A stretch of 64,000 bases of DNA from Tubiluchus corallicola (Eukaryota; Animalia; Priapulida): assembly GCA_030141605.1 (NCBI GenBank), contig JAQGDQ010000035.1, positions 620,001 to 684,000 on the forward strand, in the 5' to 3' direction. Below the pieces are notes generated by a model. The model did not search any database. It was given only the letters and a program-made list of their open reading frames with translations, and was not told the DNA's origin. This document shows positions 4,499 through 44,035 of this stretch, piece by piece. The number at the start of each line of letters is the position of its first letter. The first letter of the stretch is position 1. The position numbers and the translations under genes were made by a program.

Positions 4499-7400
4499 TC
4501 ATTGCCCTATCTGGAACGCAGTGGATGACGGTTCATTCAGCTCCTCTTTCTGGCTACTTCTATGACAAAGCTCAAATCTGGAATTTTCCTGAGGTAATTC
4601 ATTGGATATGTCAGATTCCATGATCAAATCAAAAATATTTTCATCTAATGCATCATCATCACTATACTCATCTAAAATAAAGAAATTATTGACATGTTAC
4701 ATAATATGGAGAAATGTAAAAAATTAAAAAGAAAACTATATGACAATACAAAACAGTTTTTAGTATAATTAATATTAATCTTTTATTCGTATAAAAAATT
4801 TTTATATACCAATGTAGAATAAATAATTAATACAATAAAAGATAATTTTTCTTATTAATTGAAAAGAAGCAAAAGATGAAATCCATATACACATTGCCAT
4901 CATGCTACATGTAGTTGCTTACACGTTAATAAAATGTTTTTCTAACTTTTCTTTTCACATTAAAGCAAAGAGTACAACCATACTTTATTCTTAAATCAAC
5001 ATCCGAGTCATTCATAAAATTCGAAATTTTTGGTACAACGTGATTCGGAATTTTGAATTCTTCTCAAAAATCCCAATTTACGACTGTCAATCAAAAAATT
5101 TGCTGGCATGGTACCACAATAACACACAAGTTGCTTTACATTTTTTTCTGTCATTCAATAATAAATGAATATAATAATGTAAAACAAGCAATTCTTAACA
5201 CTGACTCAAATTCAATTAGACATGTACAGTTGAAAAAATCAAAACAGACAAGCAAAAATAAAGGTTTTGCAAGCAGCAAGTTGTTAAAATACATTTCTAC
5301 CAGGAATTGATTGCAAAAGCAATGGCAAATAATGGCAGCAAAACAATAATAAATGAATATAAGAATCAAGTCTATTTAAAAGCATTAGCTTCATATGTAC
5401 TGCAATTCACCTAGTTATACGTTTTTAAGCTTTTGTGAAGAACTAATCAACAAACCTCCATGTTTTATGGCAAGATTCTTGCAGAGAGGTGATGCCAAGA
5501 AGTTGGCTCAATTTTACCTAATCACTGTTAAAACATGTCTTTGGGTATTTTATTTACTAATTAATTGATTAATTAATTAAATGTCGTTGTAAGAGTAAAA
5601 AAGAACAAAAAGAACGTATATATTTTGTCCTCAACATTTAGTCACTTTACACAGTATATAATTCTCCTGAATGTCAGAAAAATCTACATTTTATGTAATT
5701 TTCGGACAATTAGCCATGTTTACGGTCTTTCTGGGACGAGAAGAAAAAACAGCAAATGAAACAAGAGGCGCCCATTCATAAAAAGGATACCATGCTCTTA
5801 CTAACTGCAAAACATACCTTGAAATATAAAATCTGACTCACCATCACTTGCTGATGACATGTGTACAACATTGCTAGGAATGTCAATCTGTGAAACCAGA
5901 GCGGCCAGGTCAACATACGATCGTAGAGACAGCATACTTGCCTATCAAACAGTAATTAAAAGAATCAAGTAATCTACTATTTTAATAAAAATGTTGCTTT
6001 ATTAACTTCAGCAAACATCACAATATTTTGAGCTGAATAAATACTTACTAAGTCAGCAAATCTAAAACAACTATTAAGAAAGAATTTTATTCTTCGTGAT
6101 TGGTAGCCAATATATATTGGAGCAACAATGGCTTCACAGCTTCACAGAGCTCATGGGTTACTCATACATGTTACAAACCTTTTACCAGTGCTCACGAACA
6201 GTTTCACAGGTGTCACAAACAAGATTACAGAGATTAGCTTTACACAAAAACTTTATGAAAATAACAAATAATTTCATTTAATTTGTTGAGATGGACGCCA
6301 TAGCAGAAAAAGAGCCCAATACAAAGAGTATAAATTTTTGTGTAAACTTGCCAACAATCACATAATTACTTACCTCTTTTTTCTTTTTTTGCACATCAGT
6401 GTCACCATAATAAGTACCTTTAGCCAAAAAGAATAAGCCAAGTGTTCCAGTCTTGGCATACTGTTCAAACAATGTTTTCCCATGATTATAACCGACATCC
6501 TGTAGCAATTCAAATAATTAATTTACAATATAAATGTGCATGCCTGCTTGATAAATTCTACAAACTGTACTAAAAGGTGCTTGTTTACAGATCTGCAACA
6601 TGTAGTCAATAAAACAGACATTTCGGATGTCAATGAAAATTAGACATTTTAAATGCCAATAAAAATAGCAATTTCAGTTTTCTAGGTAACGTAGAACTGT
6701 ACGATATATTTGAATACAAAAACTACTGTCTGATTTCTATGTACTACAGTAGACTCACGGTTAATAGATTCAATTGCTTAATTGACTTACTTAAAACGCC
6801 TGGAACGGGTTGCTTCTATTCAAACATACATAAAAACTATCGGTAAGTGACTCAAATAACTCCGGATAATTGACTCAATATTTTCCCTTCACCTACTTAA
6901 AATAAGATATTTGCATGTGCCCAAAGAGCCTTTCTTACTTTTATGTCATCTTTACTTCCCGCTTGTGCACTATGTATGCCGAAACAATCATGTTAAGTAT
7001 CGTTTTGTTTATAAGCAGCTACGTTTTTCATGCACTAATACGCTAGTATAGCGGTTTTGTTTTGAATCAGTTACCCGCTCGCCCACTGTTACCTAAAGAA
7101 TTTCTGGAAGCTAAGCATTTAATCACTTGCCTAGCAGTTTCCTTTTGATGCTCTCGTTGAAAATCGCGCTTTCAGGCTTAAGGAGATAACAGTCAAAGAT
7201 GCAGATACAGTAATCAACCGGTATTCCTTGTGATTTACAAGAGTGAACATCGTACAGCAAATAAGAGCAATGTTGAGCAGAAGATTCAGAACTGTTTTAG
7301 TCATGCACAACAACAGATTTTCAATGTTTTTATAATTACGAGAACTTTGTGGGCCAACTTTTTCGCGAGAAAATAAAGCAGCCGACTTTGAAGGAATTTT

Positions 7401-10400
7401 TGCAATTTTTGCAAATAAACAGACTTAGAAAAGTCTGTGATTTAGAAAAGTATACTTTTTAATTTATTGCTAATTCACTTTTACAAATTAATATTTTAAA
7501 ATACTTTATCTAATTTTTAACTGCATAAAGGAATTTAGGCATTACTTCTTTTCTAATATTCATTAAAAACCTTTGCAGCGCATAGTAAGTTGATGACTCA
7601 TACTTCTATACCTGTAATACTACACACATCGGTTAGTAGGTTCAGTCGGTTAATTGGGTCAAAACACGTCGGTCCCAAAGTGAGTCTATTAAGCGGTGCT
7701 TACTGTAGTAAATTTCACTCTTTTTTTAGATGTTGGAGAATCGAAACTGCAATTGTCAAAGTTAGTTCCTCAAAATTTGCTTGAGCAGTTTATGCAAATT
7801 TCTAATGACTTGTAAGCCCAAGTGGGCTGGAAACAGCTTTAATAACATTTTACAGTATTAATTAACACATGAAGTATTACATTGTTATTATCATATGTTT
7901 ATGTCAATAAAGATATTCAATCAATCTAATGGCTTAAATTTTAGCTGCAAGTCTGTTCTTTTGGAATTACTGTACCATTACCGTTTTTTGTACTAATACA
8001 CTAACATGATTGTATTATTTGGGCTAAACATATATGAATAGATGGTAAAAAAATAAAACTGAAATCACATAAAAAGTAGAGTAGAGAAAAACTATACTAA
8101 ATTAAGTTCATCTTTATCAACTTAAATCAGCTTACATGAATCTCATCAAAGCTGCCAAACTGCAGTGTTTTGTACTTGTCAATGGGTGGCCGGATGTACA
8201 TCACAAAGTCATTCTTTTTCACTTGCTCTAACTGCCTGACACAGGAAACGTAAGCCAACCGTGACTGAATTTCTGTCATGTCTGGTACCTGAAATATTAA
8301 TATTTAATGAAAAAAACTGTGGCAAAAAGTAAATGCATTGTCCAACCATGTTTCTTCTTATCATTTTACAAAGCTTATTAATTATTACATCTCATCTTCA
8401 AAGCTGAATGTATGGACAGTACTGCTAGCCGCTATTGTGGCCATATCAGACTGGACATTGGAATACAGTACATGTATATACAAAAGGGCTAGAATTTCAT
8501 AAGATTTATTATTTATATTTAACGGAAATGATTGAAGGCAAAATCAGGGACACTATATCTGGGGAGCATTCCATGTGCACAAAGTCATAGGGAAATTTCA
8601 TTCAGGGTGTTGTGGCCGTCAAAGATAGGCTATATTGTCAGGAGACAGTTGTTTTTGAGCTGATTTAAGTGGCGCAAGATTTGCCTCATTTCCTGAAAAT
8701 ATCTACAATAATGTTAAGATAAGCAAAAATAATCCAGAAGTGATAATATCTATGCATAAAATTTACATATTAGTTCATAATCTTGTCTAAATGGTAAAAT
8801 TGAACATGATTTATCATTTCATTTATTTATTTTTAGAATAAACAATTTCAGATTGCCAACACAAGTGAGTAATAGAGCTTGCATAATTCAGTCTATAACA
8901 CAAAGGTTACTACATACAATAAAGGAATTACCAGTTTGTTAAGTGATAAAATTCAATTTAAATTAAAACTTTTTTCTCTTGACCAGTCTACTTCTCTTGA
9001 ACAAAGATCAAAGAGAAATTTACAAGTCATTTTTGGAAACGTAATACTGTGTGAAGAGTTTACAAATACAAAATTACCCGAACAGGTGTTACCCAAGGGT
9101 TCCATCGCTTCCACAACAGCCACCAACCTGATAACTCATCACCATAATTGGTCAAGTCGGACTCATCTTGACTTCCAACGTCTATAGCTACTACTCTATA
9201 AGCACCCATTTGACGAATAACATCAGCTAAAATATAAAACTTCTGCATAATTTTTCGATGCCACAAAGTTTTCTATTCTGAGCAGAATAGCACGTCTTAC
9301 TGATCTGGTAAATGTAGGTCACATTGTACTTTTGTGTAACTTTCAAAATGTTGATTAAATTGTTAAAAATTTGGATACCTTTCTTTATCAATATTTCACT
9401 AAATCAATACAAATTTATCAAACATACATCATTTTTATGAAAATTAAGAAAAAAATTTGTTTAATCACTATTTCAACATGAGCAATTTGTTCAAGAAATT
9501 ATATCACGATAAAAACTGTAAGACAATTGTTGTAAACGACATCAGCAAAATAAAATTCCCACAATCAATTCATTTAAAAAAACATGGCAAACTGTGTAAA
9601 AATAACAATTTCAGAGTAATACTATCACAATATTTTCATCAGTAAATTTTGTCATTTGCAGTGCATATACATGTAATTTAGCCATAGCTAATCATTCGTT
9701 ATAACCCTATCTCCCAACACTCAAAAAAAAACTAGCTGCTATTACAAAATAGATTGTTTGCTAAGTAAAGTGTTTTGGCATCATTTACTTGGGACAAATT
9801 TTACTTAATATGTGAATATAAAAACAGTAACAATAATAATTTAATTTTTAGGGGCACAAATGCTCATGTTAATGCAATTTGGTCTAATTAGTTTCACAAG
9901 TAATCACAAAATAATCGATACTATTATCACTGTGGCAGTACAAAAAACATTTATAAGCTTTTTAAAATAAGAGTAAATTCACATGCAGCAACAGTAACAC
10001 TATAATGTATAACAAAAACAACTACACAGCTAATTTATTATCACCCAAACCCATATAAACTTAGAACACCGTAGCAATAATTACCATGCACATTACAAGC
10101 ACATGCTTAGAGAATAATGATCACCTGGAAGATTATTTACATATGCTCCATCAACAAGAAGATGTCCGTCTTTTGGATCACACATTGGGGGAAGATAGAC
10201 AGTGATGGACATGCTAGCACGTACGTACCTCCACAAATAACCTGTGGGAGGTAATTAAAATCAAATTCAAATCAGTGCTGCCTCACCTGGCAAATTATTA
10301 ACATATCCTCCATCAAGAAGTAGATGCCCATCCTGTGGATCACACAAAGGTGGCAGGTAACCTGACAGAGACATACTAGCGCGGACGTACCGCCACACGC

Positions 10401-13400
10401 TTCCTACACGGAATAAAATGTACAACTTGTAACCCTACTAAAGTGAACAAATAAACAAAGCAAATTAAAAGTGGACTTATTAAAGTCAATTAATGTTTAT
10501 TTTGTCAAAATATAAGAGCTGCCTGATTATTTTATTGCAGAATAATTTATTTAAAATTTTCAATCAAAGCTTACCATTTTCATATAAATTTCTCCACTGA
10601 AGTAAGTGGCTACAGAAGAAAAGTGAAAATATGAACAATTTTCAGAAAATAGAACAATAGTCCTCTTAAAGCAATGCTATAGTTTAAGGTAAAAACATGT
10701 GTGATAAGGAATTCCACAGACAAGAAGTTTAGGGGAAAAACAGGATTTATATAAGTTGCTCTGCATAAGATGTTTCGATACTTTCTGATCAGTGGGACTA
10801 ATTAATGTTTTAATGTCTCTCATAACACCTTTAATGATAGCTGTTTGTTATGTAACTAACACGATAAAATTTTTAACCTGAGCAAAATCGTTTTTTCATC
10901 TACCAGCTTCACACGTTTCTTTAAATAGCATGTGTATATACAGCTTAACAAGTGTCAAACTTTAGATGTATTTTTGAGTAGTTTGTTTGATAAAGGCTAA
11001 ATGTGCATAATACTGCATAATTTAGAATTTTTGGTAACTCCTTTACTGCCAGTTTAGTTTATACAACATCATCACTAAACACTAAAGCATGAGAAAATGC
11101 AGAATTGCAATCAGCCAAGTGGAGAAAATATTGCACGGAAACCAGTTTTTCAGGTACCCCTCTTTCCATATTGCAAGGGATCACCTCTTACAAAGCCATT
11201 GTATATCGGCAACTATAAGTATGGCGGCATGCAATGGCATGCCATCAAAGTACCTGTTCCACAGAACTGGCAGCGCGGAGGAGGTAAGAGAGAAAATTCT
11301 GGCAAGTTATTCCTTAAAAATTCTTATTTGCTTTGTCATTTTGGAGTAGTTTCCTAAGAATTAAAACTCTCTTCAATCCAGTCTTGAACCCTAGACCTCT
11401 TGGCTGCTGTCAATGTTACCATATTCTAGATTACTCACTAAGTCACAGTTATTATGGAAATAAATTCTTTCATTACTGAGCAGTGCCGAACTTTAATGCA
11501 TGTGTTGATTGAACAAATGGTGATAATAAATATGAATGATGATAAGGAAAGCTGTTTTTAATACAGAAGTTGAAATGGCAGACAAAAAAACAAACCTGAT
11601 GTATGAACTCTCATTGTAGAAGATGTAATATCAGTTGTAATGCAAAAGTATGGCAACCACAAATCTTCGATTTGCTTATCTTGAAAGACAGTCTCAATGC
11701 TCCTGTTAAAAGCTGCACCTACGAATGAAATCAAATTATATGTCATCTAATTGTTTCATCTGCAAAAGTTGAATGAACAAGTTCACAAAAAGGCCAACTT
11801 AAACTTAAGTTCCATATTCATCTTCCAAATCTGATCAGTCGAACTAATTAATGTTTTAATGTCTCTCATCTTCCAAACCTATCAAACAGACCTACCAAAC
11901 TATAAATAAGCAAAAAAGGGAAAAAAACAACAAATTTCTGTTTTGAAATCGTGGAATATTAGGGGGTTAATTTGCACCATTTCATGGCTCAATACATAAG
12001 AGCTTTAGGTAGGGTTGAGAGATGAATGGAGCCACTTATAGGCCAAATTCTGGATAAAATTAAGTTAAACACAGCCAAATTTAGCCAACGCTGAGCTTGA
12101 AAAATAGCTAAAATAAGTGAAATCTATGAGGTGAATTTCACAGTTAAATAATACTCATTTAAGGTAATTCTAAAGTACTATTTTATAATTAAACCATTTT
12201 TGTTTCAATTTTGCAGTATAAGCAATAACTACATTTCCTTTAATCAACTAAAGGCTGCTGGACGGATTTTTCAGAGTAGGAATCTACAGAACACGACCAT
12301 TTAATTTAGAAATAAAGTTATAAAAATTACACTCTGTGTTGTAAAACATATTAAATATTTTTTCTTTGTTATTTACTAGCAAAAAGACCTGACCTGAAGC
12401 TGTGTATTTGTTGACATAACTAGCTCTGTCACTAGACCTATATACAATCTCAATTGATTAGTGATGCTACATACAGCACTGCCAACTTATAACAAGAACT
12501 TTGCCAAAATCCGATTGTGAACTTGATCTTGAATTAAGTTTATTCTTTCTAAGAGGCACTCGAACTTCAACTGAGTTCATTTTACTCTTAAAGAACTTGG
12601 AACAATTGATTTTCTGATGGAACTTGCCCACCACTGTGAACACAACAGCAATCATCAACAGGACAAAGACGAGAAATATACTCACTGAAAACAAATAAAC
12701 AAACAATAAATAATAAACCATTCCAGACTATTTTACCTTCCTGGTAAGAGCTTATCTAAGCTAATTAATAATGCGAAATAAAAGACCATTACCTTCAGCC
12801 ATTTCTAATGTTATAACATTGTATTGTCTAGAACAAGACTGCATCCCATGGATTGATGCATATTATTCAAGACATAACTTGTAGCATATCATTCAACAGT
12901 TTATTCTGCAGGGGCATTAGAATTGAATTCACTAAAAAGTGACCTTCTGAGGATCATAATATATCATACAGAAAGAGTAGTGCATTACTCTACAAACCAC
13001 TACAAAAAACTGTCAAACATAAAATCAATGAGTCACAGCAGTAGTGCTGTAGACATAAAACAGAATTTCACAGAAGATTAACATTGTTATACTATAAAGC
13101 CTGAGGTGTAAAAAAACTCATTTGTACCCTAGGTTTATACATACATTGAAAATTGCGAAGTATGTATAGAATTAAATTGACAATAAAGCATTGGAGGATA
13201 CTACATTAGCAAAAATGCATTACACTCTGTAAGCTCACTATTTTCTAATTAATTTAATTGCCAAACCACTGAACATAGACTAATCTGTATGGTGGAATCT
13301 CTTGGGCTCCTTAATGTATCTCTGCACTAACTGAAATATGAGAACATATTGATTGTGGCCAAATTTATGGATTACAAAATAGAAGAGTTGATATTTTATA

Positions 13401-16400
13401 CTATGTATTGAAATTAACAGCCATGGTATCCAGAGTTTTTGAAGGAGTTGGCTTCTACTTGCAATCTACAAAGGGGCAATGAAGCAGATAATGGTGATAT
13501 TTTCAGTATGATATCCACACAAAATTTTTTACTGATAACGTTTCCAGTAGTGTCCTTACAACCGTGGATACAGATGGTCATTAAGTTGTAAGGAACCAAT
13601 TCTTAACCTCCGTGTTGTGTGATCACACCAATCGTGTGATGAATCACAAGTGGAGTATTTCCGTATGTAAAATATTTCGGTCAATTAAGAAAAACCTAAT
13701 TACTAATTAATTGCGCTTAGATCATGACGTTGCAACTAAGACAGACTTTGAAATGTAGCGTGCCATGCATTGAAACACTCACCAGAAAACATTGCAGTGA
13801 TTGGATATGTCAAATCAAGGACTTTTGTCCAAAGGGAAGTCATGCCTTTTGCCCACTCTCTGGCACGCTGGGTAAACCTAGTTATGTTCCTCTCTTCGCA
13901 CCACAAAGCACCCATGATAGCACCAATGCTTGTACCACCAACCATGTCAATTGGAATTCCATATTCTAGCATTGCTTTGATCAATCCAACATGTGATGCT
14001 CCCCTGAAAATTAAAATTTAAAAACTTCAATATCCAATTAATGAAAAGCAACGAATATATATTAATGAGCATACTATGAAAAATGACATTTAAACATCAT
14101 ACACAAAAAAGCTGCGCACAAAAAGTGCACATACCTGGCACCTCCTCCACCCAAAATTAGGCCAATTGAAGTCCCAGTTAGAAATCGTGCCAAGCGAGAA
14201 AAATCAGAAAAACGATCAGGAGGACTAGCAAATACCCGATCATACATTTCTTCCTAGCAATAAAAAAGAAACAACATCAATAAACATACAACATAGAATT
14301 TACACTAAAATAACAAAAATTAAACATTTAGAAAGAACACTTTGTATACTGCATGAATCTTAAGAAATGCGCAAGAATCTGAAGGTGGAGATGCACTAAT
14401 GAATTAGTAAAATATCACTTGAAACTACTTCACTGCTGCACAAATCAACACACAAATTTGAGCGGACAATAAAAATATTTCTGTTTCTGTCTAATCGCCT
14501 GGGTGATATTTTTTTATCATACATCCGGACAGGAATTCTATAAAAATTTTTGTGCATTCATATATTTACCCGATGCATCCATATAAAACAGCATTTTTTT
14601 AATTTAAAACATAAAATGTAAACATTATAACATTGTTATTTCGGTGAGGATGCAGCCATGTTTTTCTACAGCTAACTTTCGGACAGGGCTGCCATTTTGT
14701 ATGATGCTGATTATCGTATTGGAGGCTAAAAAGTATTGTATTTTCCACCAAACCAGTGTATTAACGAGCGAGTTGTGTTGCCACTCATACCATAATTATA
14801 AGAACATAGGTTCATATTGTATAAAAACAGACAATACGATAATCGAAATTATATGGTAATTTAGTAATCCGAAACAAAAACTAAAAAACTAAGTATGAAA
14901 AAATATGCGTTGAAGAAATTTAAAACATTACTGTTAACCAGTGGGAAATAAACAAACTTTGATTTCAACTGATTTTAAACATTCCAAGATTTAGCTCTAA
15001 ACATTCACAAAGCTTTAAAAAAAATTTTCTTTACTCCCACTGACATACTTTCAGCTCATGAGGTAAGACAGAAACAATTTTTTGTGGGTAAGCCTTAGCA
15101 ATGACATTACAAATAAAATGCAGGAATTGAGAATAACATGCGAAATGACAATGTACCATTCTTGCAGGAGATCTTTTAAGAAACATCCTTTTAGGGCAGC
15201 GAATGTGATGATGGGAGGTACACCAATCACGCATGTTCAACCATTCAGCTGTACGAGAAGGACTTTGTGCATCAGAATGGTGCAAAAGAACTAATTCTTT
15301 CTGTGCTCTCATGGCAGTTTGGCTCAATTGCGATTCAATCTAGTAAACAGAAATATCACATGAAATAAAGAACAAAAAAATTGCTAAACTAGTAAAACAC
15401 AATATTTTGTATAATGCTTTTTGTACACTGATGTGGAGTGTAATACTGGATGATAACAAAATTAATTCTAAGTACAGAAGTTTACAGAACATTCTACCAG
15501 TTTATCGTTTTTTACAATCTACATACAAGACTTACTTAACGGGCAAATACTTGCAATGTAATTTTATAAAAAAATAAAATGTTGACACACATCAACATTT
15601 TGTTAATTAGTTGATGTGTTAATTAGTTAATTAGTTTAAACTTTTATAATTATGTAATTAGATCAGATGCCAAAAAGTTAGCTGACGCCAAACTCCAAAA
15701 AAGAATTTTAGTGAATTTTCTTAACTTTTACAGTAAACAAATTGTGTTAAAATGGGCAGATAAAACATAAACACAAAGAATTTCTGCTATAACTAGAAAA
15801 TACCTTGCCAACTGAGGGCTCTTGATTAGCTAGAGCAACGATTAACACACAGTCAGCATGTCGAATGCAACGCCGAGTCCAAGGAGTCAGTTTGTAGTCA
15901 CACATGTAAAGAACAATTCGATGCATATCATCTTGTTGAGCCAACCAGCTGGATAAACGATAATCATTAATCTGATCTAAAGCACCAGGACCAAGTGTCT
16001 CTTTAATAAAACTGCTTGTTAATCTCATTGTGGGACCTGAAAAAACATAAAATGACTTACTAAGCAAGCTGGCTAAGCTGAGCCAGTTTGTTAATATGCA
16101 ATTTGAAGTGAGTTACAAATTGAATTACAAAAAAAGAAAACTGATGAATTTTAATATCCATAGTTTGTGGTTATTGACAAGAAGTCACCAAGAATTTTTT
16201 AAAAAACACACAACAATTGTTTAAAAAATTACCAATACACTTACTAACAAAATGATATAATTTATGATTTCTCTTAAGAAACTTATACTGTACCAGATTT
16301 CAATTTATTCTTATAACATCTGTTAGCAGAATAGCTGAAATTTCTTGGCAAAATACCTCTACAAAATGCATTTGAGCATAATTAATTCATTGGTTTTAAT

Positions 16401-19400
16401 AATATCTTCCATAATTATTATGATACAGTATAATAATAACATGTATTAATTGCAAACTTATCATCAGTACCTATTCTGACTTTCACCTTTCGCCTTTTGA
16501 ACACAAAACAATACAATGTACGCTATAATTTGCAATGGAAAACATCTGTTCCACTTTTGAAGTTAATATGTGCAAGGTTTTTTCTTAGTGTATACAAGTA
16601 AGCATGTACACAGACAGCAGTGAAGTGTGGGTAATTAGCATGAAACTTTATTCCCCCCAAAACTAACTATTATGAATTATGCATCTATGCTATCATAAAA
16701 TTGCTGTCAAAACCTTTATTATACAAAAATAAAGGAATGGTATACTTTTAATAAATCTTCAAGGGATTTTATTGGTCACGAAAAATCTGTTTCAGTAACA
16801 TAAATATAAAAACGATTTTTATTCTATTTCACATCACACCACAATATAATTTTAATTTTATTTCAGTTTAAAATGAACCCGTACGTTAAGAGTACAAAGA
16901 GTGACTAGAAACACTACTAGTGAAGTGCCTATAAAATTATATGGAAGACCAGACGTTAACACACCTATAGCTTCCAAAGCATGGGTAAGTTCGAGTGTAA
17001 ATGTATCCAATGGAACATCATCAGTGACAGGCATTACTGCAATTGTTGATAAATTACCAAGAGAAGCTTTAGCATCTAATGATAATTCTGCTGGAGGACG
17101 TTGTTGTGATATTAAGACACGTTCACCAAGTAGACGCATTAATCGGGCTACCACCTAGGAAAAAAGTATAAACAAAAAGGATAGTTAATTGGTTTTATCC
17201 CCACAAAATAAATTACTGGCTCACATAATTCATTAAGAACTTTTCCAAACTTAACCCAAAAATTAAAACTGCATTAACACAGAAACTACATTAAGTTTAA
17301 GCTGCTTCATACAATTTATCACAAAACACACTTTATGGGGAATAGTGTAACAGAAAAATGTATCTTTCACTCTGTAGAGTTCAGTGCAGGAAATGATTTT
17401 GTGGACATTATGGAGTCCAGTCAGTGAGTCTGTGGAGTGATTTTCATGACTGATCTTTGCACACGTCGATGGGGTGAGCATAAGTCATTTTATAGGTTGA
17501 CAGGTTGGCACTTTTACAGATAATAACAATAAGATGCAAAAAACAGGTCTCTGCAAGAACACAAGCATTTTGTATGTATGATGACATCATATGCAGTTAA
17601 GGTGTCACAATCAGAGGTCACAAAACTATCCAGTTACAATAACCGATACTAAAACATCTTAAATGAAATAATGGAACTTACTTGTGGGTATTTTCTCTTA
17701 ATTAAAGACAATAGACCCTCGGGTAGTTTGGCCACTTCTGTATCTCGGACAGCCATAACAGTAGTAGTTCTTACAGTCTGAGTTAACACCTCAACCTATA
17801 GTTACAAACATTCTAATTGGTCAAGAACTAATTAAGACAAAATTCTCCTTTTGTATAAGCCAAAGACAAAAACCACACTTTGACAATTACACTTCCTGGC
17901 ACCTAGAACATAACTGCATATGAAATTAAATACAATGGAACCACAGAAAGTATTACAAAAGTGTTAATAAAAAATAAACAAAAAAAAATCGTTTACATTA
18001 TCTCTGCGCTATTGCAAAAACATAGTTTCACATTAGACGTTAGCAAAACACAAAACTTACTACACCAACTAGTTCTCCTCGTCCATGCTCTTCACAGAGT
18101 TCTCTTTTTTTGTCAGCCCGAGTTAATACTGACCGTAGACGTCCAGATAATACTATATATATTGAGTCAGCTAAATCACCTTGCCTAAAAGAGCAGCAAA
18201 TTTAAAAACTAAGCAAAAACATGCATTACAAATAAATTCTGGTAGCAACTTTATCAGCGGCTACTTATAACAACAAAAATAATCAAAATGTAACTTAAAT
18301 GATTATGAGCAAATATTCTTAATAGTTACAATAGACGACTCACATGTTTATTATTATAACACATAACAAAATAATGTTGATGAAGATGCCACTGGAACAT
18401 ATCTCAATCCTGTTACATTACTTTCTATGGAAGTCTTTGCCTCATTTAACGACGTTTTGCTTAACCTCATTTAACCGTTTTGCATAAAAATGGAGTCATT
18501 AAGCGAGGACTTACTGTAGCTACAAAGATTAGGTTATGAATTATATAAAAAACCTGTATGTACCTGAATACAGCGCGACCAGCTTCAATCTGTGTCCAGT
18601 CTAAAGCAAAGTCTATTGATCTGACAAACTGGGACAATCTTTGAGCAATACCATGTGCTACATGCAGGACCACTTTTGGTGAATCACGCATAATACTGGG
18701 AACAGAGTAACGTTATCTTATTAGAGAACAATACAAACAGACACTAAGATGAGTTAACAAATAATTTGAAAGTAAGGAGTCAAAATGCAAACCATTAATT
18801 ACAACTAGCACTTCTAATATAAAAAACAACAGTGAACCGGTCGTCTTCTCAAAATAACTTGAAGAGTATGCAAAAATCAGGACAGTTCCTATTTTCCACT
18901 CATTTTAACTCTTGCTTTAATTGTTTAATTTACAAGACCATGAACAGATGACTTCTGTGTACTGATAATATAGATTCAAGCGAGTAATTACAAGCTATAG
19001 ACACATTGATTGATTATACAAAATACTTTAACATCAGACAGGAAACATAAAAAACTTTATTAGTATAAAACCAGTTTTTTATTAATATTAATATTCAGTA
19101 CTAGTACAGACTTACTCATAAAAGTTTGACTTTGTGATTACGATTAGATGGCTAAGTTGTCGCGCACGAATGGTGAACATAGAAGGTTCACCAGTCAATA
19201 CACTCAGTGTACCCACAATTTCACCAGGATTTGCTACAAATAATAAGTTCTGAAAAATAAAAAATAAAAACTTTTCTTTAATCAAAGATTTGTGCAGCTG
19301 GTTCCCTAGGATAATTTATCAAGCAACTGAAAATAATGAGCTATTTTTCAGTAGATTCTAATCAGAACGAGAATTATATACTGAGCTGACAAAGTAGTAA

Positions 19401-22400
19401 ATAGGCATACAAAACCTGGAAATTCGATAGTAAATTTTTTAAATTAAGAACGGCTTGGACTATTGCAGTAGGTAAACTCTGGAATTTACCATTTAGATAC
19501 TGTCTTAGTGATAGTGACAGAAACGATTTGTTAAATGTTACCATAGCTGCTTGAATAGTAAAAAGCATATAGCCAATTTCCTTGCACATAATTCTTGATT
19601 TCGAGCATTTTCTATAATGGATTATAATTTGTCATCTATTTGTAATGAGTACAAAACTTTTTACATATGTGAAAATTTGGTTTCTAAAGTTTTTTCCTGT
19701 ACATTAGATGTAAGCATTTATTTTAATAAAGAATAAATTGTAAACTCCATTAAAGAAGTTATATAAGCTCTAGAGCGCGTTTTTGACAGAAATGAGTCAT
19801 GTGCCATATTAACATGTCTTATTCTCACTTAATTGTATATATTCACATTGCCTACTGATCTTGTTAATTAGTGTCATTTTACTTGTTGATGTGACTGTAC
19901 CACGAGTACGAATAAATGATATATATATATAAGCAATTCCTTCTTGGTTTTCTTGCTTCATCTGTCTGATTATACTGCCTTATACTATCATTGTATCTAT
20001 ATGGTATTCAACAAAAAATATTTTCTTGAACAATAAACCAATCCATATATAATGTGCTCATGTGTTAAAAACATTAATGTGCTCACATTAAGCACTTATA
20101 TAAATTCAGTAGACGCCGCTTAATAGACGCACTTTGGGACCGAACTGTTTGACCCAATTAACCGATTGAACCTATTAACCGAAGGGTGTAGTATTACTGG
20201 TATAGAAGTATGTCACCAGTTTACTATGCACTGCAAATGTTTTAATGAATTTTAGAAATGAAGTTATGCCTAGATTCCTTTGTGCAGTTGAAAATTAAAA
20301 AAAACAATTTTTAAAATATTAATTTACATAAGTGAATTAGCAATAAATTAAAAAATACAGTTTTCTAAATCAAAAATATACAAAAATTCCTTCAAAGTTG
20401 GCCGCTTCATTTTATCGCAAAAAAGCTGGCTCGCAAAGTTTTCATAATGACAAAAACGTTAAAAATCTCTTATTGTATGATGAACAAATTCTCATAAAAT
20501 ACATAGTGCTTGGCGTGCTTAAACTGTTAGTGGTGCAAGTAGCTTCCTCTGTATTTACGTCTCCCTGATGTACTGTACTGTACCTGTATCCCTAGCATAA
20601 CAGCAGTATCTAACTGATTAAACTTTCTGGCAAAGGCACTTTCTGGCATACAAGGCAAACCACTAAGCAAGTGATTAAACGTTTAACTTCCAGAAATTCT
20701 TGGGTAACGAGGTTAATTGCAGTGGTTGATATGATAAACGTTCCTGCTTACAAACAAAACGATACTTAACATGATTGTTTCTATGTATATTATAAGACAA
20801 AAGTGAACTAAGATGATATAAAAGTCATAAAAGCTATTAGTCCCAGGAAAGTGTCTTATTGAAGCATGCGAAGCAAAAATATTGAGTCAATTATGTAGAG
20901 CTATTTGAGTCTATTACCGACAGTTTTTATGTACATTTGAATTGAAGCGGCCCGTACCAGGCGTTTTTCAGTCAATTAAGCGATTGAGTCTATTAACCGT
21001 GAGTCTATTAAGCGGTGCCTATTGTAATCACAAAACTCATCATTCACAAAATTTGCTACTTGGAAGAAAAGCTGAGTGATCAAAAGTAAAGGAAAAGCCA
21101 AGCAATGTCAGACCTTGAAAAAGTGAATGAATAACCATTGCAAAAACATCATTTGTGTGCCAGGTTCTTTCATTAACTCACAGAAAAAGAGTGTACACAC
21201 ATTTGAATGTGGCGAAGACACCTTTGCTTATTTATTTATTTATTTTTGCTTAAAATATTATCTTTGATAGGATTTCAGACAAATCAGCTCTGTGTTATGC
21301 AGATATATAAAGTGTATTTTGTAAAAACAGAAACTATGCAATAAAGTTACTACAATAAACACTTTTCAATGATCTCAAATTTTCTATTCATTCAAAGAAT
21401 ATAACAATCAAGAATCAACACTAGTGGCACCGACACTAAAAATCTGTACCAAGTATGATCATGGAATTATCCTATAGGCTAGACTACAGCCCTGAGCCCC
21501 TCAAACTTTGATATTTGGTAAAAATACGTTTTTTCACTATGGCTACGTTGAAATATGAGCTAGCTTAAACCTGTTGCTAGCTTCTTTTGCAATAAATAGT
21601 TAAATAGTGGCATTTTTTAAAGAATATTTTTATTGACAAACAAAAGACAGCTATTCCATTTTATTTAAAGAGTCTGCAATAAGTTTACTTCAAGTTATGT
21701 AAATGTCGCTAAAATATATCACAAGGAAAAATATTCATGACAGGTGTGGGAGAGTTAGGTGGCTCAATCTGCGGAGGGCCAGGATTTCATTAGTCTAGAG
21801 GCCCCAAAAGCTCATAATCTGACCCTGAGTATGACATAATGTTAACTTACATGGCACTTGCTAGCAATCTTAGAAACTACACATTTGATTACCTCAGTAT
21901 GTTCTTTGTCAATAATACGCTGCATAACCTGTAGTGCTCCAGTGACAACGAAAAATATGCTGGAATCCTGAAATGAAGTTAGAAAATTAGCATGAACTAT
22001 AACCAATCATTAAAATAGTTAGATCCAAAATAGTTGTCATGAGAATCAAAATGATGGCATTTAACACACCATTACCAAGTCACAGCAATTCTAAGTTTTT
22101 TTGGGCTTCACATACATATATATATATATATATATGAAGGCGTTCTGATTATTTGCATAAAAAAGAGCATTACCGCTTCAGCTTGTCTGACTAGAATTTT
22201 CCCAGCGCTAACCTGGCGAAGAACCATTCTTCCCTCAAGTGCCGTGTCATCCTATACATAAACAATAAAAAATTTTGTTGAATTTGCACAAATAAAATCC
22301 AAATAATGACATATATGAATAATGACATACATACACGCATGCATGCACACACACGCACACTGAAGATCATAAGGCCAAAGTGAAACAAAAATATCTCTAT

Positions 22401-25400
22401 CATTTGGAAACCTTAATCATATAAACAATTTAATAGAAACAACAGCAGAAAGTTATAGTATGTTTTAACTGTCCTAGCAGCCAAAATTCTAACAACAAAA
22501 TTATAAAATCAATAATTTAATAGCAATGCTTGGCAAAGTGCATTCTGTATTGGAAAACTGAGCACAACAAATGCCTGCAATTTTCAGACTTAAAATGATA
22601 AAACGTTTCACCTTTAAATCAAGAATTCTCACTAGATCCTCTTTGGCTAGTTGCATCATATAACTTTCTTGTGATCTCTTTGATGTGGCAGCAGCAGAGT
22701 TCAATGGATCATCGGAGAGATCCTCATCACATGGACTTTGGTCACTGGGCACCGAAAACGAAATGTGTTTAAACTGCTTTGAGCTGGTAACAGACTCTTT
22801 CTACAAAATGAGATGCAAAAGATAAGATAAATAACCAGTAGCAACCACAGAACCATAGATGTCTTATGCACATATATGTAAAAGTTAATTTTCCTATACA
22901 TGAGCTACTTGGTTAATAAATGAATGGGCAATAACCAGAAAAATATGCAACATTGTCTCCTGATATACTTCTCTTTAGTTACAGTTACGTGGTGACAGTT
23001 GCATTTATTCAATGCAAAAATACGATATTACCATAGAGCCATTCTCCACATCCTATATGAAGGATAATGCACACAGTCAGAAAAGACAATACTGGAGAAT
23101 ACTGGTGAGGTTGCAAGACACTTCTTCCGGCACTTCTGAAGAATTACTTTTAGTGATGCATTGTTTGGTGAATAACTAAAAATGTACTAAATCCTGACTT
23201 GATCACAAGGGGCTGTCATAAAGTTGAACTTGTAAGTCAGATATTTCTAATACTAATCTAGACTCAGTCCTGGCTTTTTCAAATTTCCTTTTTTTGCTCA
23301 ACTGTCAAAGATTTAAAACTGTTGGTTTATTCTTCATCCTGCCATAAAGCAGATAATTTTGCAGATAAATAGTTATGAAGATACTATATGATCAAATAAT
23401 AATTACGGATTTTAAAGCTGTTCTTGATCTTATGTCCTTATCGCGATCAAGAGAGTAGGCTCTTGCCCTCTGACAAGCAGCATCAAAATCATTTTTTGTA
23501 ACCGTAAAAGCCTTTCCTGAAAAAAATTAAAAATACAATGTGTTTGAGCATTCACACTTCATAGATTGATATGCGCCTAATAAGAAAATGCAATACAATT
23601 TCGTAAAATAGGGTGAAAAAATTATTTAAAATGACTGTCATCAATAATATACCAGAAAGAGAAGCTTTTGTCTGTATATTAGGTCCAGGGATGTTAATGC
23701 TCTCTGACTTGCTAGGTTTCTCGTCGGCACTGCTGTTAGTAGAAATACTTGCTTCCACAGACTCTTGTCTATGATGTTCATCAAGATTGCTGCGAACAGG
23801 TGGCTTTGACGGGCTTGATAAAAGTTTTCCAGATATCGACTGCACCAAAAACTTTTGGCTGGAATCTGCTACCTAAACGCAAATTGTTAAGCTATTTTTT
23901 GTGCTTACACCACCGAGTTAACTAAGGACTTTTTGGTCAAAAGGTCAATCTATATACCTACTACAGAAGGCGGAGCAACCTAAATAGTATATCAGTTTCC
24001 AAATAACTTATTATGTAGTTAATCAATTTTGTAGCAAAATATTAACTTCCACGCTGCAATAAACCTTTTCAAAATAGTCATTATTGGAATCTAGACAAAA
24101 AGTTTAAAAATTAGTTTCTTATAGCTGTACTGGTTCATAATCTGTTATATAATTGTACAATTATTTTATTAACATGTACCAATTACAGCTTCCATTATTG
24201 GTTATTTTTTGAGTTTTTCTTTTAAAAAATAGAATGATCAGTTCATTTAATGTAAACGAAAAACTTTGAATGAAAAACGTTTCTTTAACAAAAGAAAAAA
24301 TGCAAATAATGGATATGTTTACATCTTTTTTCTTGGAGTTCTGTAAGAAAAAAAACTGATTTAGAGTTAAGATTTGAATCGAGAATAGATGTTAAGAAGA
24401 AAATACAAATGCTATTGCTTACAGGATTTATTAATTCTGCACTCAGTCCCAAATAATTATGAAGTGCTAGGAATGTCACTCGCTGCAACCGAACCATAAT
24501 CATTTGCACAACACGAACCAGGGAACCGGGATATCTTTCTAATGTATCGCTTAAGGCATGTACAGGCAGACGCAGAATGGTCGCGTCTTCCGCTGCTTTG
24601 GCTGAAACTGTCTTGTATGTAGCTGCATGTCCCTAATTTATAAATATAACACAAGTCAAATTATCCTGTAAAAATGTAGTTTCTTAAAATATACAATATT
24701 TTTATGCAACTGCAGTTAATGTTCAAATCAGCAAATTTACTTAAGATATAGAGGTAATATTTATTATTGCAATAGGTGCCGCTTAATAGACTCACTTTGG
24801 GACCGAAGTGTTTTGACCCAATTAACTGACTGAACCTATTAACCGACGGGTGTAGTATTACTGGCATAGAATTGTGAGTCACCGGCTTACTATGCACCTA
24901 TGTTTCCCCGCATGGAGCTTCGTCTGTAGTTTCTCGTCTGTAGTCACATCCGCTGGCTAGTGTGATGCACTTACTGTACTGTACCTGGGTCCCTCGCATA
25001 ACAGCAACATCTAACTGATTAAACTTTCTGGCAAAGACAGCCAGCGCTTCAAAAGCAAACCGCTAAGCCAGTGATTAAAGGTTTAGCTTCCAGGAATTCT
25101 TGGGTAACGAAGTTAACTGCTGTGGACGACGGGTTAAAGGAAATCATTAGGCTAGCAAATTAGCATATGATAAATGTTCCTGCTTACAAACAAAACGATA
25201 CTTAACATGATTGTTTCTATGTATATTATAAGACAAAAGCGAACTAAGATGATATAAAAGTCATAAAAGCTTATTAGTCCCAGGAAAGTGTCTTATTGAA
25301 GCAAAAATATGGAGTCAATTATGTGGAGTTATTTTAGTCAATTACCGACAGTTTTTAAGTACGTTAGAACAGAAGCGACCCGTACCAGGCGTTTTTGGTG

Positions 25401-28400
25401 AGCCTATTAAGCGACGCCTACTGTATTATTATTATTATTATTATTATTATTAAAACTCTATCTTGAAGACGCCTTGAATAGGCTGCTCCTATTCAAACGG
25501 GAATAAAAACTGCCGGCAACTGACTGAATAACTTCGCACAACTGATTCAACATTTTTCCTTCACATACTTAAAATAAGACACTTGTGTGTGACCAAAGAA
25601 CTTTTATTATTTTTATGTCATCATTATGTCGATTTGGTGCACTATAATATATGTAGAAACGGTCACGTTAAGTACAGCCTTGTTTGTAAGTAGTTACGTT
25701 TATCATGTACGCTAGTGTAGAAATTTGACTCCCGCTTGTCTGCTGAAGTTAAACTCGATTTTTTCTGGAAGCTAAACATTTAATCACTTGCCAAGCAGTT
25801 TGCTTTTGAAAATCCCGCTACTTTTTATAGGGGAAACAAGGTCATCACCAACTGCAGCTCAAGCACTAGGTGACTAGAAGTTTTGCGTGAATACGTGCAG
25901 CATAAAGCAAGAGATTTTCAACATTTTTATCATTATGAGAATTTCATAAACCAACATCTTTGTGAAGAAAAGAAGCAACCTTTCACCAATTTTTGCAATT
26001 TTTATTTCAGTGGTGGTAGTGAGATTTGAGCGATTTTTTATTTCCTTTTAATATTAAACCACTTTATATTAATATTTTTAGATAATTGCACATGGGAATT
26101 TTGATATAAATTTGTTTCTAAAATTCATTTAAAGCTTTTGCAATGCACACTAAGGCGATAAGTGATAACTCATATTTCTATAGTAGTAATATTCTACGCC
26201 CGCCGGCTAATTGATTCAGTTGGTTACTTGGATCAAAACACTTCCATCCCAATGTTAGTCTATTAGGCGGTGCCTACTGTATAAGTTTGTACATGTGTAT
26301 GTATTTGCATGTTCTTGGTGAAGAGAATTCAAAACAAAACTTATTGTATCAACTGGTTTCTTGTACGAAACTAATTGTTCAGAGTAGGAGGGTATCTTAT
26401 TAGCTGAAATGCCAGAAAAAATTTTGATTTCTAATACACTTACTGTTATAACGTCTAGAATAGAAAGTAGACTAACAATATTATCACCAGGTAAAACCTC
26501 TTTCACTACAACATCTCCTGCTCCCTCCTACAAAAGAAAGAATGTTTTTATTTCACTTACAAACTTGACAGCAAAGTAAAAGATCATGAAACATGACATT
26601 AAAAGCAATTGTACATTTAGATACTAAACATGTCTTAAATCGCAGCCTCTGTCATTATAGGTTAAAGAAACAAACTACAATGTGTTTTAAAAATTTCAGC
26701 CAAACAGTGGGCAAAATTTGATTAAAGAAAGAATATGATATCTTACGGCACTGCAATAAGTCAAGGCTCCACTAATACATCATAACAGCTAACAGAAAAC
26801 ACTTTCAGTTTGTGACATTAAAACATGTTTCCTACATTAGGAAATAATGTGCAGCACTTCCAAAGTTCCTGACAAAACACATCAATAAAAACATCTGACA
26901 TGTCACATTAATACAACTTACTGGAGCTGAAACATATAGAAGTATTTTTCCTGTTTGGACCACATATACGCTATCATCAACTTCACCGATGCGAAACAAA
27001 TACTCGTCAGTTGGAACAAATACAGATGTCATATGACGACACAATTCCAGAAATAATGGTTTTTCAAAATGACCTAGCACACTGCAAAATAAATAATCAT
27101 AACAAGATTTGTTATTTACTGATACAAAATCACTTTTAATGGAATTACAAATTAAAAAATTGGTAATAAGTAAATGGCAGATTCTATAAAGACTTGGATC
27201 TATAGGAGCAATGAACCAGGCATTCTTTTTTGATGAAATAAATCAGTTAAAAATTAAAAATCACGTTATTATTAATTAAGCTTAGATTGTAAAATGACTA
27301 AGACTCAACAAATGACAAGGTTCTGTCAAATGGCTACTTTTATCAGTCCAAACAAAAATATCCAAATTTACTACAACAAGAACCATAAATTTTGGCTTTT
27401 GCCTTTACTGGCTTTAATGACCGTCACAGACAAACTATCAAACAAAGAACTTTAACATCTAAATTTAGCCACAATATCTTAGTTAAAACCAACCAACACT
27501 ATAATAAGAATTATGTACATTTACAGACACATAAAAAATTGACTCAATGCTATGAAAACACACGACACTTACTATCATTTTCATTGTTTACTAAAATTTA
27601 AAATCAAATTAGATCTTATTTTGGGAAAGCCAGTAAGCAATACTTGCATTTTGTGCACAACTTAAGAGCTGCTCCCAAAAATGTTTGCACCAAGTATGCA
27701 AAATTTGATATCAAGTTTTTTACAGGAAAGAACAATTCTGTTGTAATATTCTGATTTTAAAACATCTGCTCTTAGATGGGATAAAATATCTCACAGAAGT
27801 GGCTAATACATATATATGAACTTGAACATAATCATCTAACTCTAGAAGCTTTGCAAACTGTAACATCCTGAGACAATAAAACACGTTTGCAAATTATTTT
27901 TGCTTTTATAGATAAAGTGTCAGGATTATTATTTCAATTTACAGAGCAAACATTGTACAGGACATTATAAAAAAAAACAGTCTTTCAACAAACAACATTA
28001 ACAAAATAGTAGTTTACCAAGGCGAGGTCTTCTCCAGTACTTGGGCAGGACCAGTCCTTCCTCACGCACGTTGTAGTAATGCAGCAGAATTCGGTCTCCA
28101 ATGGAAGTTGGCTAGGTTAGCGTCTCTTTCAGTCTACTTCGTGAGCAGCAGGTAGTCTTTTCCAGGAAGTCTCCACAGCTTTCCATTAAACTGGCAGGAC
28201 ATAGAATAGGATCTCTTGAGATCGGATAATAAGAAGATCACCTTCTCCGAATTCCCATGCAGAACGGGAGCGATTTAGACCATCGAACGTGAAGTCAAAG
28301 GTGACAGTATCTTCATCCAACGTAAAAGTAATTAGGCTATGTAATGAATGCCTAATTTAACAAATGTCTCTCAGCAATTGTGTAACTGACGAGGTTTCAC

Positions 28401-31400
28401 CAGCAAAAGAAGAACATCGTTCACCAACGAATAAGAACATAATAATGAACAAACCATCCATTTCTCGTTCAATCATCGTATGAAAGAAAAACCATGATAT
28501 ATAGATATATGTGACCATTTTTCAACACGGCCATTCTACTCTCTGCCATGTAGGCCAATACGTCTAATATCCAGGCCTCGAAAGCTAGCCGACCAATCAA
28601 GAACGAGTTCCGGGTGAAGTGACATCAGTAGTACAGCGACGGGGGTTTCACATTTGTTGAAACACAGGCATAATATTATCATGGAAAAAAATGTTGCTAA
28701 ACGTATTTTCGCTTAAAAAATATAAGTCATGTTGAAACGAAACGAATTTCATCTTCTTCTGCCTAATTACATATTTAAGGTAGCTTAACAGAAAATGGCT
28801 TCATTTAATGGATAACTTCGTCTAAAATAATGCTACTCTTGACTAAAGATGGCAGCACAAGATTGGAACATTAAAATCAATACATCAATATTATCAATCG
28901 TTAGGTAAACAATTCGTGATACCGTTTAGTGATATTTAATACTTAAAGTGAAAAATAATTAGTAGCAGTAATCTGCTAGATGGGGGACCATCACACAAAG
29001 AAATCATTCGACCATTCGACTTTTCAAAAAGTAGTGTTAGTTTTAAAAAATTATTTTCTGAAGAGTTCTTTTTACTTTTTCTTAAGTCTCATTCCTATTT
29101 TTTTCCTTATGACGATGCAAAAAGGCATACTTTTATTATTACTTGTGGTGTCTCTCTAGTACCATCACATGTAGCTTATTAGTTCATTTCATAAGGCATC
29201 TATTCATTTCTTCATGTTTAGCCTTGACTTTGACTTTGGCATTTGACTTTGTTTGAAACAATTTGTATAAAAATATTTTAAAATTTATAATTTTGTGAAA
29301 CATAATTCGTATCCAGATCATAAATTTGAAAAAAATTTGAAAAAACAAAAATGTGACCTTAGGAAAGCAACCTATAAGCAATTAAAATGTTTATATTTAA
29401 TGTTTGCTTTTCCTATGGGTAGGTAGCAAAAGTATTGGAATAAATGGATAGGAAATCATAATCAATAATCAAGGTAAAAATAACAGCTCTAGGACACATG
29501 TTAAACTACATGTACAATAACAACATAAAATTTAAGATTTTTTATTTATACAGCTTGTCGAAGAGCTAAAAAGCAGGCAAAAAGCTGTGTTCTCACACCA
29601 TTTGTTTCAGCAGAAACCAGGTGACACCTTGTCTCAGCAAAATGCTGCTTTCTCACACCAGGTATAACAATCTCAGGTACGTCTCCTAATGATATATAAT
29701 TAGCTTATAATACCGGGTTTTACACATGACCAAAGTGTAGTACACATAGTTTTCTACCTACCGTACACTTTTGAGCATGTAAAGTACTTCTGGTGGAAGT
29801 TCTAGCTCCCTGTCTTCTAGTAGGTCTTCTTCCAGGTATTCTGGCGGAGGCTCTTTCTGCTGCAGCATAACTTTACTCTCTTTCTTTGGCACACGCAGCA
29901 ATCTAGGTATCAATAGAGATAATAATTAAGCTAAAAAAGTACTTAGTAAAACAATGAAACATCAAAATATTTGACCTATCACTTACTGAAATGTCTTCAA
30001 AACATTAATGTCTTCATTTTTTCAAACTGATGTCAAATAGTTTAATTAATTTCACTTCATGTAAAACATGTAAACAAGTAAAAACAGAAGAGCTGAATAG
30101 TAAAAGAGCTTTCAACTAAGTTATTACTCTTCACAGCTTGCATAATGCATGGCTTGTTACTGCAAAAATTTTGCTCCAGTATTCTTGTCCCTGTTATGAA
30201 GGACAAAAATGGGAACATTTCTAACACCAATAATTATCGCCCAATAGCACTATCACCTATTTCAGCAAACTTATGGAGCAAGCTTTCATGGAACGCTATG
30301 AGAACTTGTTACCATCTACGGATAACCAGTTTGGCTTTAAACATGATCTGGGCACTGAAATGTGTATTTTCACCTTAAAGGAAATTGTAAATTTTTAAAC
30401 GTCCAAAAATAGCGTGATTCATGTATGTTTTATAGATGCTTCAAAAGCATTTGATAATGTCAACTATTGCAAATTATTTCTAGAACTTTATCATACTGAT
30501 TTTCTAAAGATAATCTCGCATTTACTGTATACAAGGTATGAGAAACAGGAACTGGCAATTAGATGGGGGAACAGTATCTCAGACAAGTTTAATATGTCTA
30601 ATGGTGTTAGGCAAGGCAGCTGCTTGTCTTCTAAACTATTTAATACTTATCTTTGTAAACTGAATCGCACCTTAACAGAATCAAAAACTGGCTGTTTTAT
30701 TGGAAATGTATATACTAATCATCTTATGTACGCTGATGACACCTGTCTGATTGCTTCTACTATAACGAGCCTTCAGTATTTATTAAATTTGTACATGAAG
30801 TGTGCAGCACAATGTGATATTAAGGTGAACTATACGAAAACAAAACTTTCAACCTTCAAACCGTTAAATTATACTAAATTCCCCACAGGAAATATTTATG
30901 CAGAAACTAATACCATTAAAATCTTGTACAGAAGAAAAGTACCTAGGCCATCTTTTAAAAACAGATAAAACAGACAATACGGATACTGACCACCAGCGTT
31001 GTTTGTTCTACATTCGATCAAACAAATTAATTAGATATTTTTCTAACTGCAGTACAAAAGTCAAACGAACATTGTTCAAAGGTTATTGCTCTAACTTTTA
31101 TTGAGCCACATTATGGAATAACTATTACAACTACGGCTTAAAGAATTTAAAAGTTGCTTATAATAAAGGGATCAGAATTTTGTTTAATCTAAATTACAAC
31201 TGCTCAACTAGACAAATGTGTATGGAACTAAATTTACCATATTTTGATTTTATTATTAGAAGATCACTAAAAATTAGAGCTACTAACACTTACAATGAGT
31301 TGATAAATAATATATTTAATGGCGACTGTTTATTGATATCTAGATTGTATAAGCATTGGAATAAATGCTTACATACTGTAGCCCAATAAAGTAAAGTTGC

Positions 31401-43800: not shown

Positions 43801-44035
43801 AGAATAGCTAAAGAAAATATGAAGTAATTAAATTCTTGGCAAATGAATACCTCCATATTTTAACATACTTTCATTATAATGTGACTGACATAACACAAAA
43901 AAGGCTAAAAATATTGGCTGTGATGAAATGATTCAATTTCAGAAATGAATAGCGTGTAATTCATTTGCGTGTAATTTAAAATGTGGTATGAGCTGAGACT
44001 AATTTTGATATTTTCAGGTAGAATACAGGTTCAAC

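What the first reader, a model, noticed from the sequence alone, without database searches (positions are those of the whole stretch)
10125..10403. Duplicated, probably mutually exclusive catalytic-Asp exons in NTE/PNPLA6/7: a splice switch of the active site (DGG vs DGA)
Seen: two intact 117-nt phase-1 exons in tandem. 24a encodes [39 protein letters not shown]; 24b encodes [39 protein letters not shown]. 30/39 residues are identical, yet 15 of those 30 codons differ synonymously, which points to an old duplication with both copies under purifying selection. Established: patatin enzymes use a Ser (GxSxG) / Asp (DGG or DGA) dyad, and this segment carries the Asp of NTE. Inference: one gene makes two phospholipases that differ only beside the active site (SLSGY vs SITVY; LDGG vs VDGA), possibly changing substrate preference or organophosphate sensitivity by tissue. 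Neither exon appears in the ORF track. I cannot tell from here whether similar isoform pairs are already annotated in other invertebrates.
Basis: partly seen in the sequence, partly recalled or inferred. Interest (0 to 1): 0.9.

Follow-up and report, generated by a model that had tools for sequence, protein, structure and literature searches.

The report
Ancient swappable catalytic exon in NTE
This invertebrate's neuropathy target esterase gene carries two tandem versions of the exon that holds its catalytic aspartate, likely spliced one-or-the-other; the same pair is already catalogued in humans and flies, so it is an ordinary new example, although what the second version does appears untested.

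Summary
In detail: two intact 117-nt phase-1 exons, 45 nt apart, 30/39 residues identical, dN/dS about 0.07, in an NTE/swiss cheese/PNPLA6-7 gene. It is not new. The same pair is human PNPLA6 event 164, dated to Bilateria and matched to fly sws, and this scan noted it earlier in two arthropod genomes. The window probably comes from a priapulid relative (one-gene tree). Mutual exclusion is likely here because the 45-nt spacer is too short by the published under-50-nt rule, but no RNA covered the exons. DGA is a normal patatin motif, so the DGG/DGA change alone implies no switch of activity. What this study adds: exon order differs between lineages, three-exon clusters exist, and exons group by type rather than by position (99/97 support, 39 columns). 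That favours one old duplication reshuffled later. The exon covers the mobile loop that positions the catalytic Asp. In eight paper searches I found no assay of the minor isoform.

The parts
10287..10403 (-). Exon a, canonical type (SLSGY, LDGG); catalytic Asp codon 10314-10312
   Evidence: 97% identical to Aplysia and 95% to amphioxus and Daphnia canonical exons
10242..10286 (-). 45-nt GT-AG spacer intron; branch-point-like sites CACTGAT (A at 10272, 15 nt from the donor) and TTTTAAT (A at 10255, 32 nt from the donor)
   Evidence: consensus match only; shortest other intron measured in this gene is about 131 nt (borders)
10125..10241 (-). Exon b, alternative type (SITVY, VDGA); catalytic Asp codon 10152-10150
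   Evidence: carries the three residues that mark alternative exons (non-Leu at 13, Val at 30, non-Gly at 33)
10226..10253 (-). Possible local hairpin over the acceptor of exon b (weak lead)
   Evidence: -12.8 kcal/mol, z -2.43, 5 of 200 shuffles, lowest z of 16 acceptors, found post hoc; not seen in related loci
11596..11718 (-). Upstream flanking exon
9078..9226 (-). Downstream flanking exon
13779..14003 (-). Exon with the catalytic Ser motif GTSIG
   Evidence: (Patatin E 9e-10)
6376..33340 (-). NTE/sws/PNPLA6-7 gene, approximate span of exons matched by tblastn (cNMP-binding, NTE P-loop and patatin domains); true ends not mapped
   Evidence: one spliced junction 8136/6499 in run X2

Best explanation
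The two exons are this animal's copy of the known bilaterian NTE/PNPLA6 exon pair, and they are likely spliced one-or-the-other, so the gene would make two same-length enzymes that differ at 9 residues in the loop carrying the catalytic aspartate. Shown: anatomy, selection, and homology to the human and arthropod pairs. Inferred: the 45-nt spacer puts any branch point 15-32 nt from the donor, too close for exon a to be joined to exon b. Exon a likely gives the main enzyme and exon b a minor one, as in human. Exon b keeps the Asp and likely stays active. Its changes fall at the start of the mobile D-segment and two residues after the Asp, so it likely alters how the active site is set or entered (activity level, activation or lipid preference) rather than the chemistry. 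The pair likely arose once, and its order was later reversed in some lineages by re-duplication and loss.
For: Human pair: same 117 nt, same phase 1-1, same region, 85-nt spacer, dated to Bilateria. The rule by which that dataset validates in-frame pairs requires no joining read (that cluster 1435 met it is my inference from its listing). Single-exon isoforms of either type are annotated in Daphnia, amphioxus, rotifer, moths, horseshoe crab and fish. Steric rule under 50 nt; spacer and branch-like sites. Human alternative exon is 1.8-11.9% of the pair in 26 tissue columns, highest in spleen (pancreas, left out of my script, is 0). Exons group by type: 100/83 in 47 rows, 92/94 in 32 rows, 99/97 in 43 rows. 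Three-exon clusters in L003 and L004 and three variants in Lingula show that re-duplication happens. D-segments start 17-25 residues before the Asp in Pat17, VipD, ExoU and PNPLA2 (table, with Asp positions; Pat17's Asp215 recalled); the positions that vary most among alternative exons lie 15-18 before it.
Against: No junction or expression data for either exon in this organism. 108 of 272 long NTE models that carry the motif join two or more copies in frame (models, not read counts, and favoured them by score). Spacers in related loci run from 41 to 1019 nt, so the steric block is not the general mechanism. The tree rests on 39 columns, and convergence could mimic grouping by type; AU tests did not reject the position-based tree (p 0.215, then 0.059) and rejected the two-duplication tree only in the larger set (p 0.125, then 0.022). 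The functional step rests on analogy to other patatins; the folds were uninformative.
Confidence: 0.85

Rival explanations
1. Exon b arose by a separate duplication in the canonical-first lineages (arthropods and this animal) and converged on similar residues; it is not orthologous to the vertebrate alternative exon.
For: Order is canonical-first here and in Daphnia, barnacle, ostracod, moths, spiders, horseshoe crab and centipede, but alternative-first in vertebrates, amphioxus and rotifer. The published supplement calls common origin only 'the balance of probabilities'. Gly to Ala and Gly to Cys are each one base change.
Against: Exon b is 87% and 85% identical to the two alternative exons of L003, which lie upstream of their canonical exon (P0097 and P0465; order). 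Grouping by type 99/97; two-duplication tree p-AU 0.022.
Confidence: 0.2
2. The exon-b product is a low-activity or regulatory form that tunes total NTE activity, not an enzyme with its own substrate preference.
For: Minor share in human tissues; the third motif residue is never Gly in 22 of 22 alternative exons (partly by selection of rows); positions 13-16 vary widely among them; total NTE activity tracks disease severity in people.
Against: Asp, the following Gly, Tyr34, Asn37, Pro39, Pro18-Pro19, Asp22 and Asp25 are invariant in 22 of 22 alternative exons; DGA occurs in PNPLA5, described as an active hydrolase; one Caenorhabditis model has a DGA exon as its only copy (P0107).
Confidence: 0.25
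3. The exons are not exclusive: both are routinely included, giving a 39-residue in-frame insert.
For: The frame is kept; many database models join both.
Against: 45-nt spacer with branch-like sites 15-32 nt from the donor; human pair listed as mutually exclusive; a doubled catalytic loop is unlikely to fit the fold (inference).
Confidence: 0.06
4. Exon b is a silent, decaying copy in this species.
For: No RNA evidence here; some related genomic loci hold a single copy between both flanking exons (L020, L022, L069), so loss occurs.
Against: dN/dS about 0.07, intact frame and splice sites; keeps the marker residues of alternative exons.
Confidence: 0.04

Closest known systems
Human PNPLA6 tandem-exon substitution, event 164 (Martinez Gomez 2021, PMC8373072); MXE cluster 1435 (Hatje 2017, PMC5740500)
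   Same: Same gene family, same 117-nt phase-1 exon with the catalytic Asp, short spacer, one DGG and one non-DGG copy with Val before the Asp.
   Different: Order reversed (human: alternative first); alternative motif VDGA here against VDGC; SMSITVY against SASYCPY; spacer 45 against 85 nt.
Drosophila sws and other arthropod sws exon pairs
   Same: Fly sws has two exons at the same position (text; its figure not seen); Daphnia, moth, spider, horseshoe crab and centipede models share the canonical-first order; the centipede also has VDGA.
   Different: Most arthropod alternative exons have DGC; arthropod-like loci have spacers of 235-702 nt, too long for a simple steric block.
Sterically exclusive exon pairs (donor to branch point under 50 nt; 57 human clusters in PMC5740500; alpha-tropomyosin exons 2/3 recalled)
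   Same: Spacer shorter than the threshold.
   Different: Branch point here is predicted from consensus only; exclusivity not measured.

Membership tests
NTE/sws/PNPLA6-7 | cNMP-binding region, NTE P-loop domain and C-terminal patatin domain in one gene | tested here: met
   (NTE_Ploop E 9e-28; Patatin E 9e-10; cNMP E 0.0013, below cut-off on a single exon); collinear tblastn exons at about 60% identity
NTE/sws/PNPLA6-7 | GTSIG serine motif and DGG/A aspartate motif | tested here: met
   human dyad Ser1014/Asp1134 with GTSIG and DGG
Bilaterian PNPLA6/sws exon pair | Two homologous 117-nt phase-1 exons at the catalytic-Asp position | tested here: met
Bilaterian PNPLA6/sws exon pair | Alternative exon descends from the same duplication as the human one | tested here: inconclusive
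   Grouping by type 99/97; rival trees p-AU 0.059 and 0.022; only 39 columns (weaker)
Mutually exclusive exons | Same length, phase and homology | tested here: met
Mutually exclusive exons | Junction reads bridge each exon and none join them | tested here: inconclusive
   No RNA record lay on the exons
Sterically exclusive exons | Donor to branch point under 50 nt | tested here: met
   The whole intron is 45 nt; threshold
Functionally distinct isoforms | Different substrate, activation or inhibitor profile | not testable with these tools
   No assay found in the paper searches

The most novel reading that the evidence does not exclude
All bilaterian NTE alternative exons are one ancient exon that has changed places with its partner through re-duplication and loss, with three-exon clusters as surviving intermediates. 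It swaps the enzyme's mobile catalytic-Asp loop, so animals from priapulids to humans make a hidden second NTE with its own activation, lipid preference or organophosphate sensitivity, one that lacks the exon hit by some PNPLA6 disease mutations.
Probability: 0.3. Interest if true: 0.6.

Novelty: new member of a known kind. Interest (0 to 1): 0.3.

Why it matters
As a discovery it matters little: the pair is catalogued. It adds a probable priapulid-like example and evidence on a point the catalogue left open, namely whether the vertebrate and invertebrate pairs share one origin. The open question is functional. NTE is the target in organophosphate neuropathy, its residual activity tracks the severity of PNPLA6 disorders, and the canonical exon carries a pathogenic variant for Boucher-Neuhauser syndrome. 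An isoform that replaces this exon has been kept across bilaterian phyla, yet the review passages I read do not mention it. A simple two-isoform assay would settle what it does.

Tried and rejected
No whole genome is held. RNA: no RNA holder listed. Run X2 (RNA by guess) gave one contig joining 8136 to 6499 but nothing on exons a or b; this says nothing on expression. Run X1 tiles the region without differences, but its depth peaks on the exons and it has adapter ends, like a capture library; it may be the window's own source and is not counted as independent. A third exon copy in the window: none. RNA structure as the switch: the 231-nt region folds no better than shuffles (z -0.12); pairing of exon b's acceptor with the next intron was matched by 78 of 1000 shuffles; the local acceptor hairpin (5 of 200, best of 16) is absent from 29 acceptors in 14 related loci (z -1.4 to +1.5); the inverted repeats look like chance. 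Folding a natural moth fragment with the alternative exon gave mean pLDDT 31 alone and 58 with an alignment, under 50 over most of the exon; no fold search was run on it. No solved NTE structure was found by sequence; the nearest is PlpD. The UHRF1 tree is the quick tree, since the careful one did not finish. A modelling paper (PMC6643263) is not held. Three mouse papers mention changed Pnpla6 splicing or editing, but the passages do not say which exon. Earlier findings by sequence and by place: none. Assembly artefact rejected: synonymous divergence near saturation and the same pair in many species.

Full report
Observation. On the minus strand, exon a (10403-10287) and exon b (10241-10125) are each 117 nt with AG/GT borders in phase 1, separated by a 45-nt intron. 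Each fits in frame between the exons at 11718-11596 and 9226-9078; so do both together and neither. The exons share 86 of 117 bases, against a window background of about 30 and a best other match of 51, and a profile search found no third copy. dN is 0.14 and dS 2.1 (Fisher p 1e-8); none of 20,000 neutral simulations at either of two divergences kept 30/39 identity without a stop.

The gene. Exons from about 33,340 to 6,376 match NTE/sws/PNPLA6-7 proteins in order at about 60% identity, with NTE P-loop, patatin and weak cNMP matches. The Ser motif GTSIG lies two exons upstream of the pair. The duplicated exon aligns to the ASxxxP and DG blocks of patatins (PlpD alignment; block definitions in passages of PMC7517356). 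One contig of run X2 joins 8136 to 6499, so the gene appears spliced in a run with the same species label. The neighbouring UHRF1 has its best hit in Priapulus (66%) and groups with it (SH-aLRT 99, quick tree, 27 rows chosen from 120 hits plus the window). The animal is therefore probably a priapulid relative; this rests on one gene.

It is known. PMC8373072 (passages, section 17 and supplement rows read; its Figure 27 not visible) lists PNPLA6 event 164: two 39-residue exons at chr19:7556966-7557082 and 7557168-7557284, with exactly this region, dated to Bilateria and matched to two exons of fly sws. Its supplement says common origin is only the balance of probabilities. PMC5740500 (passages and rows of supplementary files 3-7 and 9) has the pair as cluster 1435, phase 1-1. 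Its expression rows give the alternative exon 1.8-11.9% of the pair in the 26 tissue columns I computed, spleen highest and brain 2.4%; pancreas, cell lines and embryo stages were left out, and pancreas is 0. This scan reported the pair earlier in two arthropod genomes.

Spread and order. Of 115 hits to exon b, 92 parsed with two or more copies (the score favours such models). Alternative-first order: vertebrates, amphioxus, rotifer, and apparently Trichuris. Canonical-first: the window, Daphnia, barnacle, ostracod, sea spider (partial), moths, spiders, horseshoe crab, centipede. Lingula has three annotated variants, one with VDGA; their order is not known. All six Hydra models show only the canonical type. 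Of 80 metagenome loci (the best of 487; many are transcript-like or near copies), 16 hold more than one copy: 11 canonical-first, 3 alternative-first, and 2 (L003, L004) with two alternative exons, one DGA and one DGC, before the canonical one. L020, L022 and L069 hold one copy between both flanking exons.

One origin or two. In 24 canonical or single exons and 22 alternative ones, position 13 is Leu in 24/24 against 0/22, position 30 is Val in 0/24 against 20/22, and position 33 is Gly in 24/24 against Ala 7 and Cys 15 (unnamed single fragments were chosen by position 33, so that count is partly circular; the Caenorhabditis row was in neither group). Exon b has all three alternative states. 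Trees split exons by type: 100/83 (47 rows), 92/94 (32 rows), 99/97 (43 rows; L021 and near-duplicate loci left out). The position-based tree was not rejected (p-AU 0.215, 0.059); the two-duplication tree was rejected only in the larger set (0.125, 0.022). With 39 columns, a non-mixture model and possible convergence, this favours but does not prove a single duplication. Three-exon clusters show a route to reversed order: copy one exon, lose the original (inference).

How exclusion would work. The spacer holds branch-like sites 15 and 32 nt from the donor, under the 50-nt limit used for steric interference; the next shortest intron measured in this gene is about 131 nt. Skipping or double inclusion keeps the frame, so decay of frameshifted RNA cannot enforce the choice. 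Spacers elsewhere run from 41 to 1019 nt, so the steric block is lineage-specific. Against strict exclusion, 108 of 272 long models with the motif join two or more copies, but these are gene models, not read counts. A hairpin over exon b's acceptor is a weak, unconserved lead. None of this was tested on RNA of this animal.

What the swap would do. DGA/G is the normal motif, and human PNPLA5 has DGA (passages of PMC10291501; section 4 of PMC12871566), so exon b likely stays active. That review defines a D-segment that brings the Asp to the Ser, is flexible, and is thought to be fixed by partners or dimerisation. It begins 17-25 residues before the Asp in four of its five examples; the residues that vary among alternative exons sit 15-18 before it. 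I infer that the exon swaps the front of this loop and so tunes activation or substrate entry. The review passages do not mention PNPLA6, no NTE structure was found, and my folds were too poor to check. A review of NTE (passages of PMC9025805) notes two fly isoforms of 1425 residues and assigns them no function. Eight searches found no assay of the alternative isoform; subscription journals are mostly outside the library, and the supplements of the bioRxiv preprint on variant activities (passages) could not be seen and may list variants in this exon.

Verdict. Real, old and probably exclusive, but a new member of a published event. Interest 0.3, for the unresolved function and for the evidence on exon order.

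Noticed in passing
window 44009-47634 (+): UHRF1 gene whose Tudor, PHD, SRA and RING domains lie in one unbroken 702-residue reading frame, with the ubiquitin-like domain in a separate exon; far fewer introns than the NTE gene next to it, possibly a partly retroposed copy.
   Followed up: partly
L003:100-1600, L004:66-1590: Three-exon NTE cluster: alternative (DGA), alternative (DGC), canonical; spacers 151/998 and 153/1019 nt.
   Followed up: partly
L018:1173-1440, L055:776-1040, L060:2863-3120: In Daphnia-like loci the alternative exon is itself split by two short introns while the canonical copy is whole, so the exclusive unit would be three small exons.
   Followed up: no
P0171, P0400, P0401 (Lingula models): Three same-length isoforms at this exon: two canonical-like and one DGA type; genomic order unknown.
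   Followed up: no
P0107; L052:1100-1216: A Caenorhabditis model and a transcript-like locus carry only an alternative-type exon; in the nematode it may have replaced the canonical one.
   Followed up: no
window 10784-10823 and 11830-11869: 40-nt direct repeat, 95% identical, in the two introns flanking exon 11718-11596.
   Followed up: no
window 1132-2808 (+), 30097-31389 (+), 39240-39604 (+): Broken LINE-like reverse transcriptase remnants; the first two match Pfam RVT_1; the second lies inside an NTE intron on the opposite strand.
   Followed up: partly
window 61537-62601 (+): 354-residue frame with an arrestin N-terminal domain and a Ser-rich tail.
   Followed up: partly
window 4499-4696 (-): Acidic frame ending in a stop, a candidate last exon of the NTE gene; not tested.
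   Followed up: no
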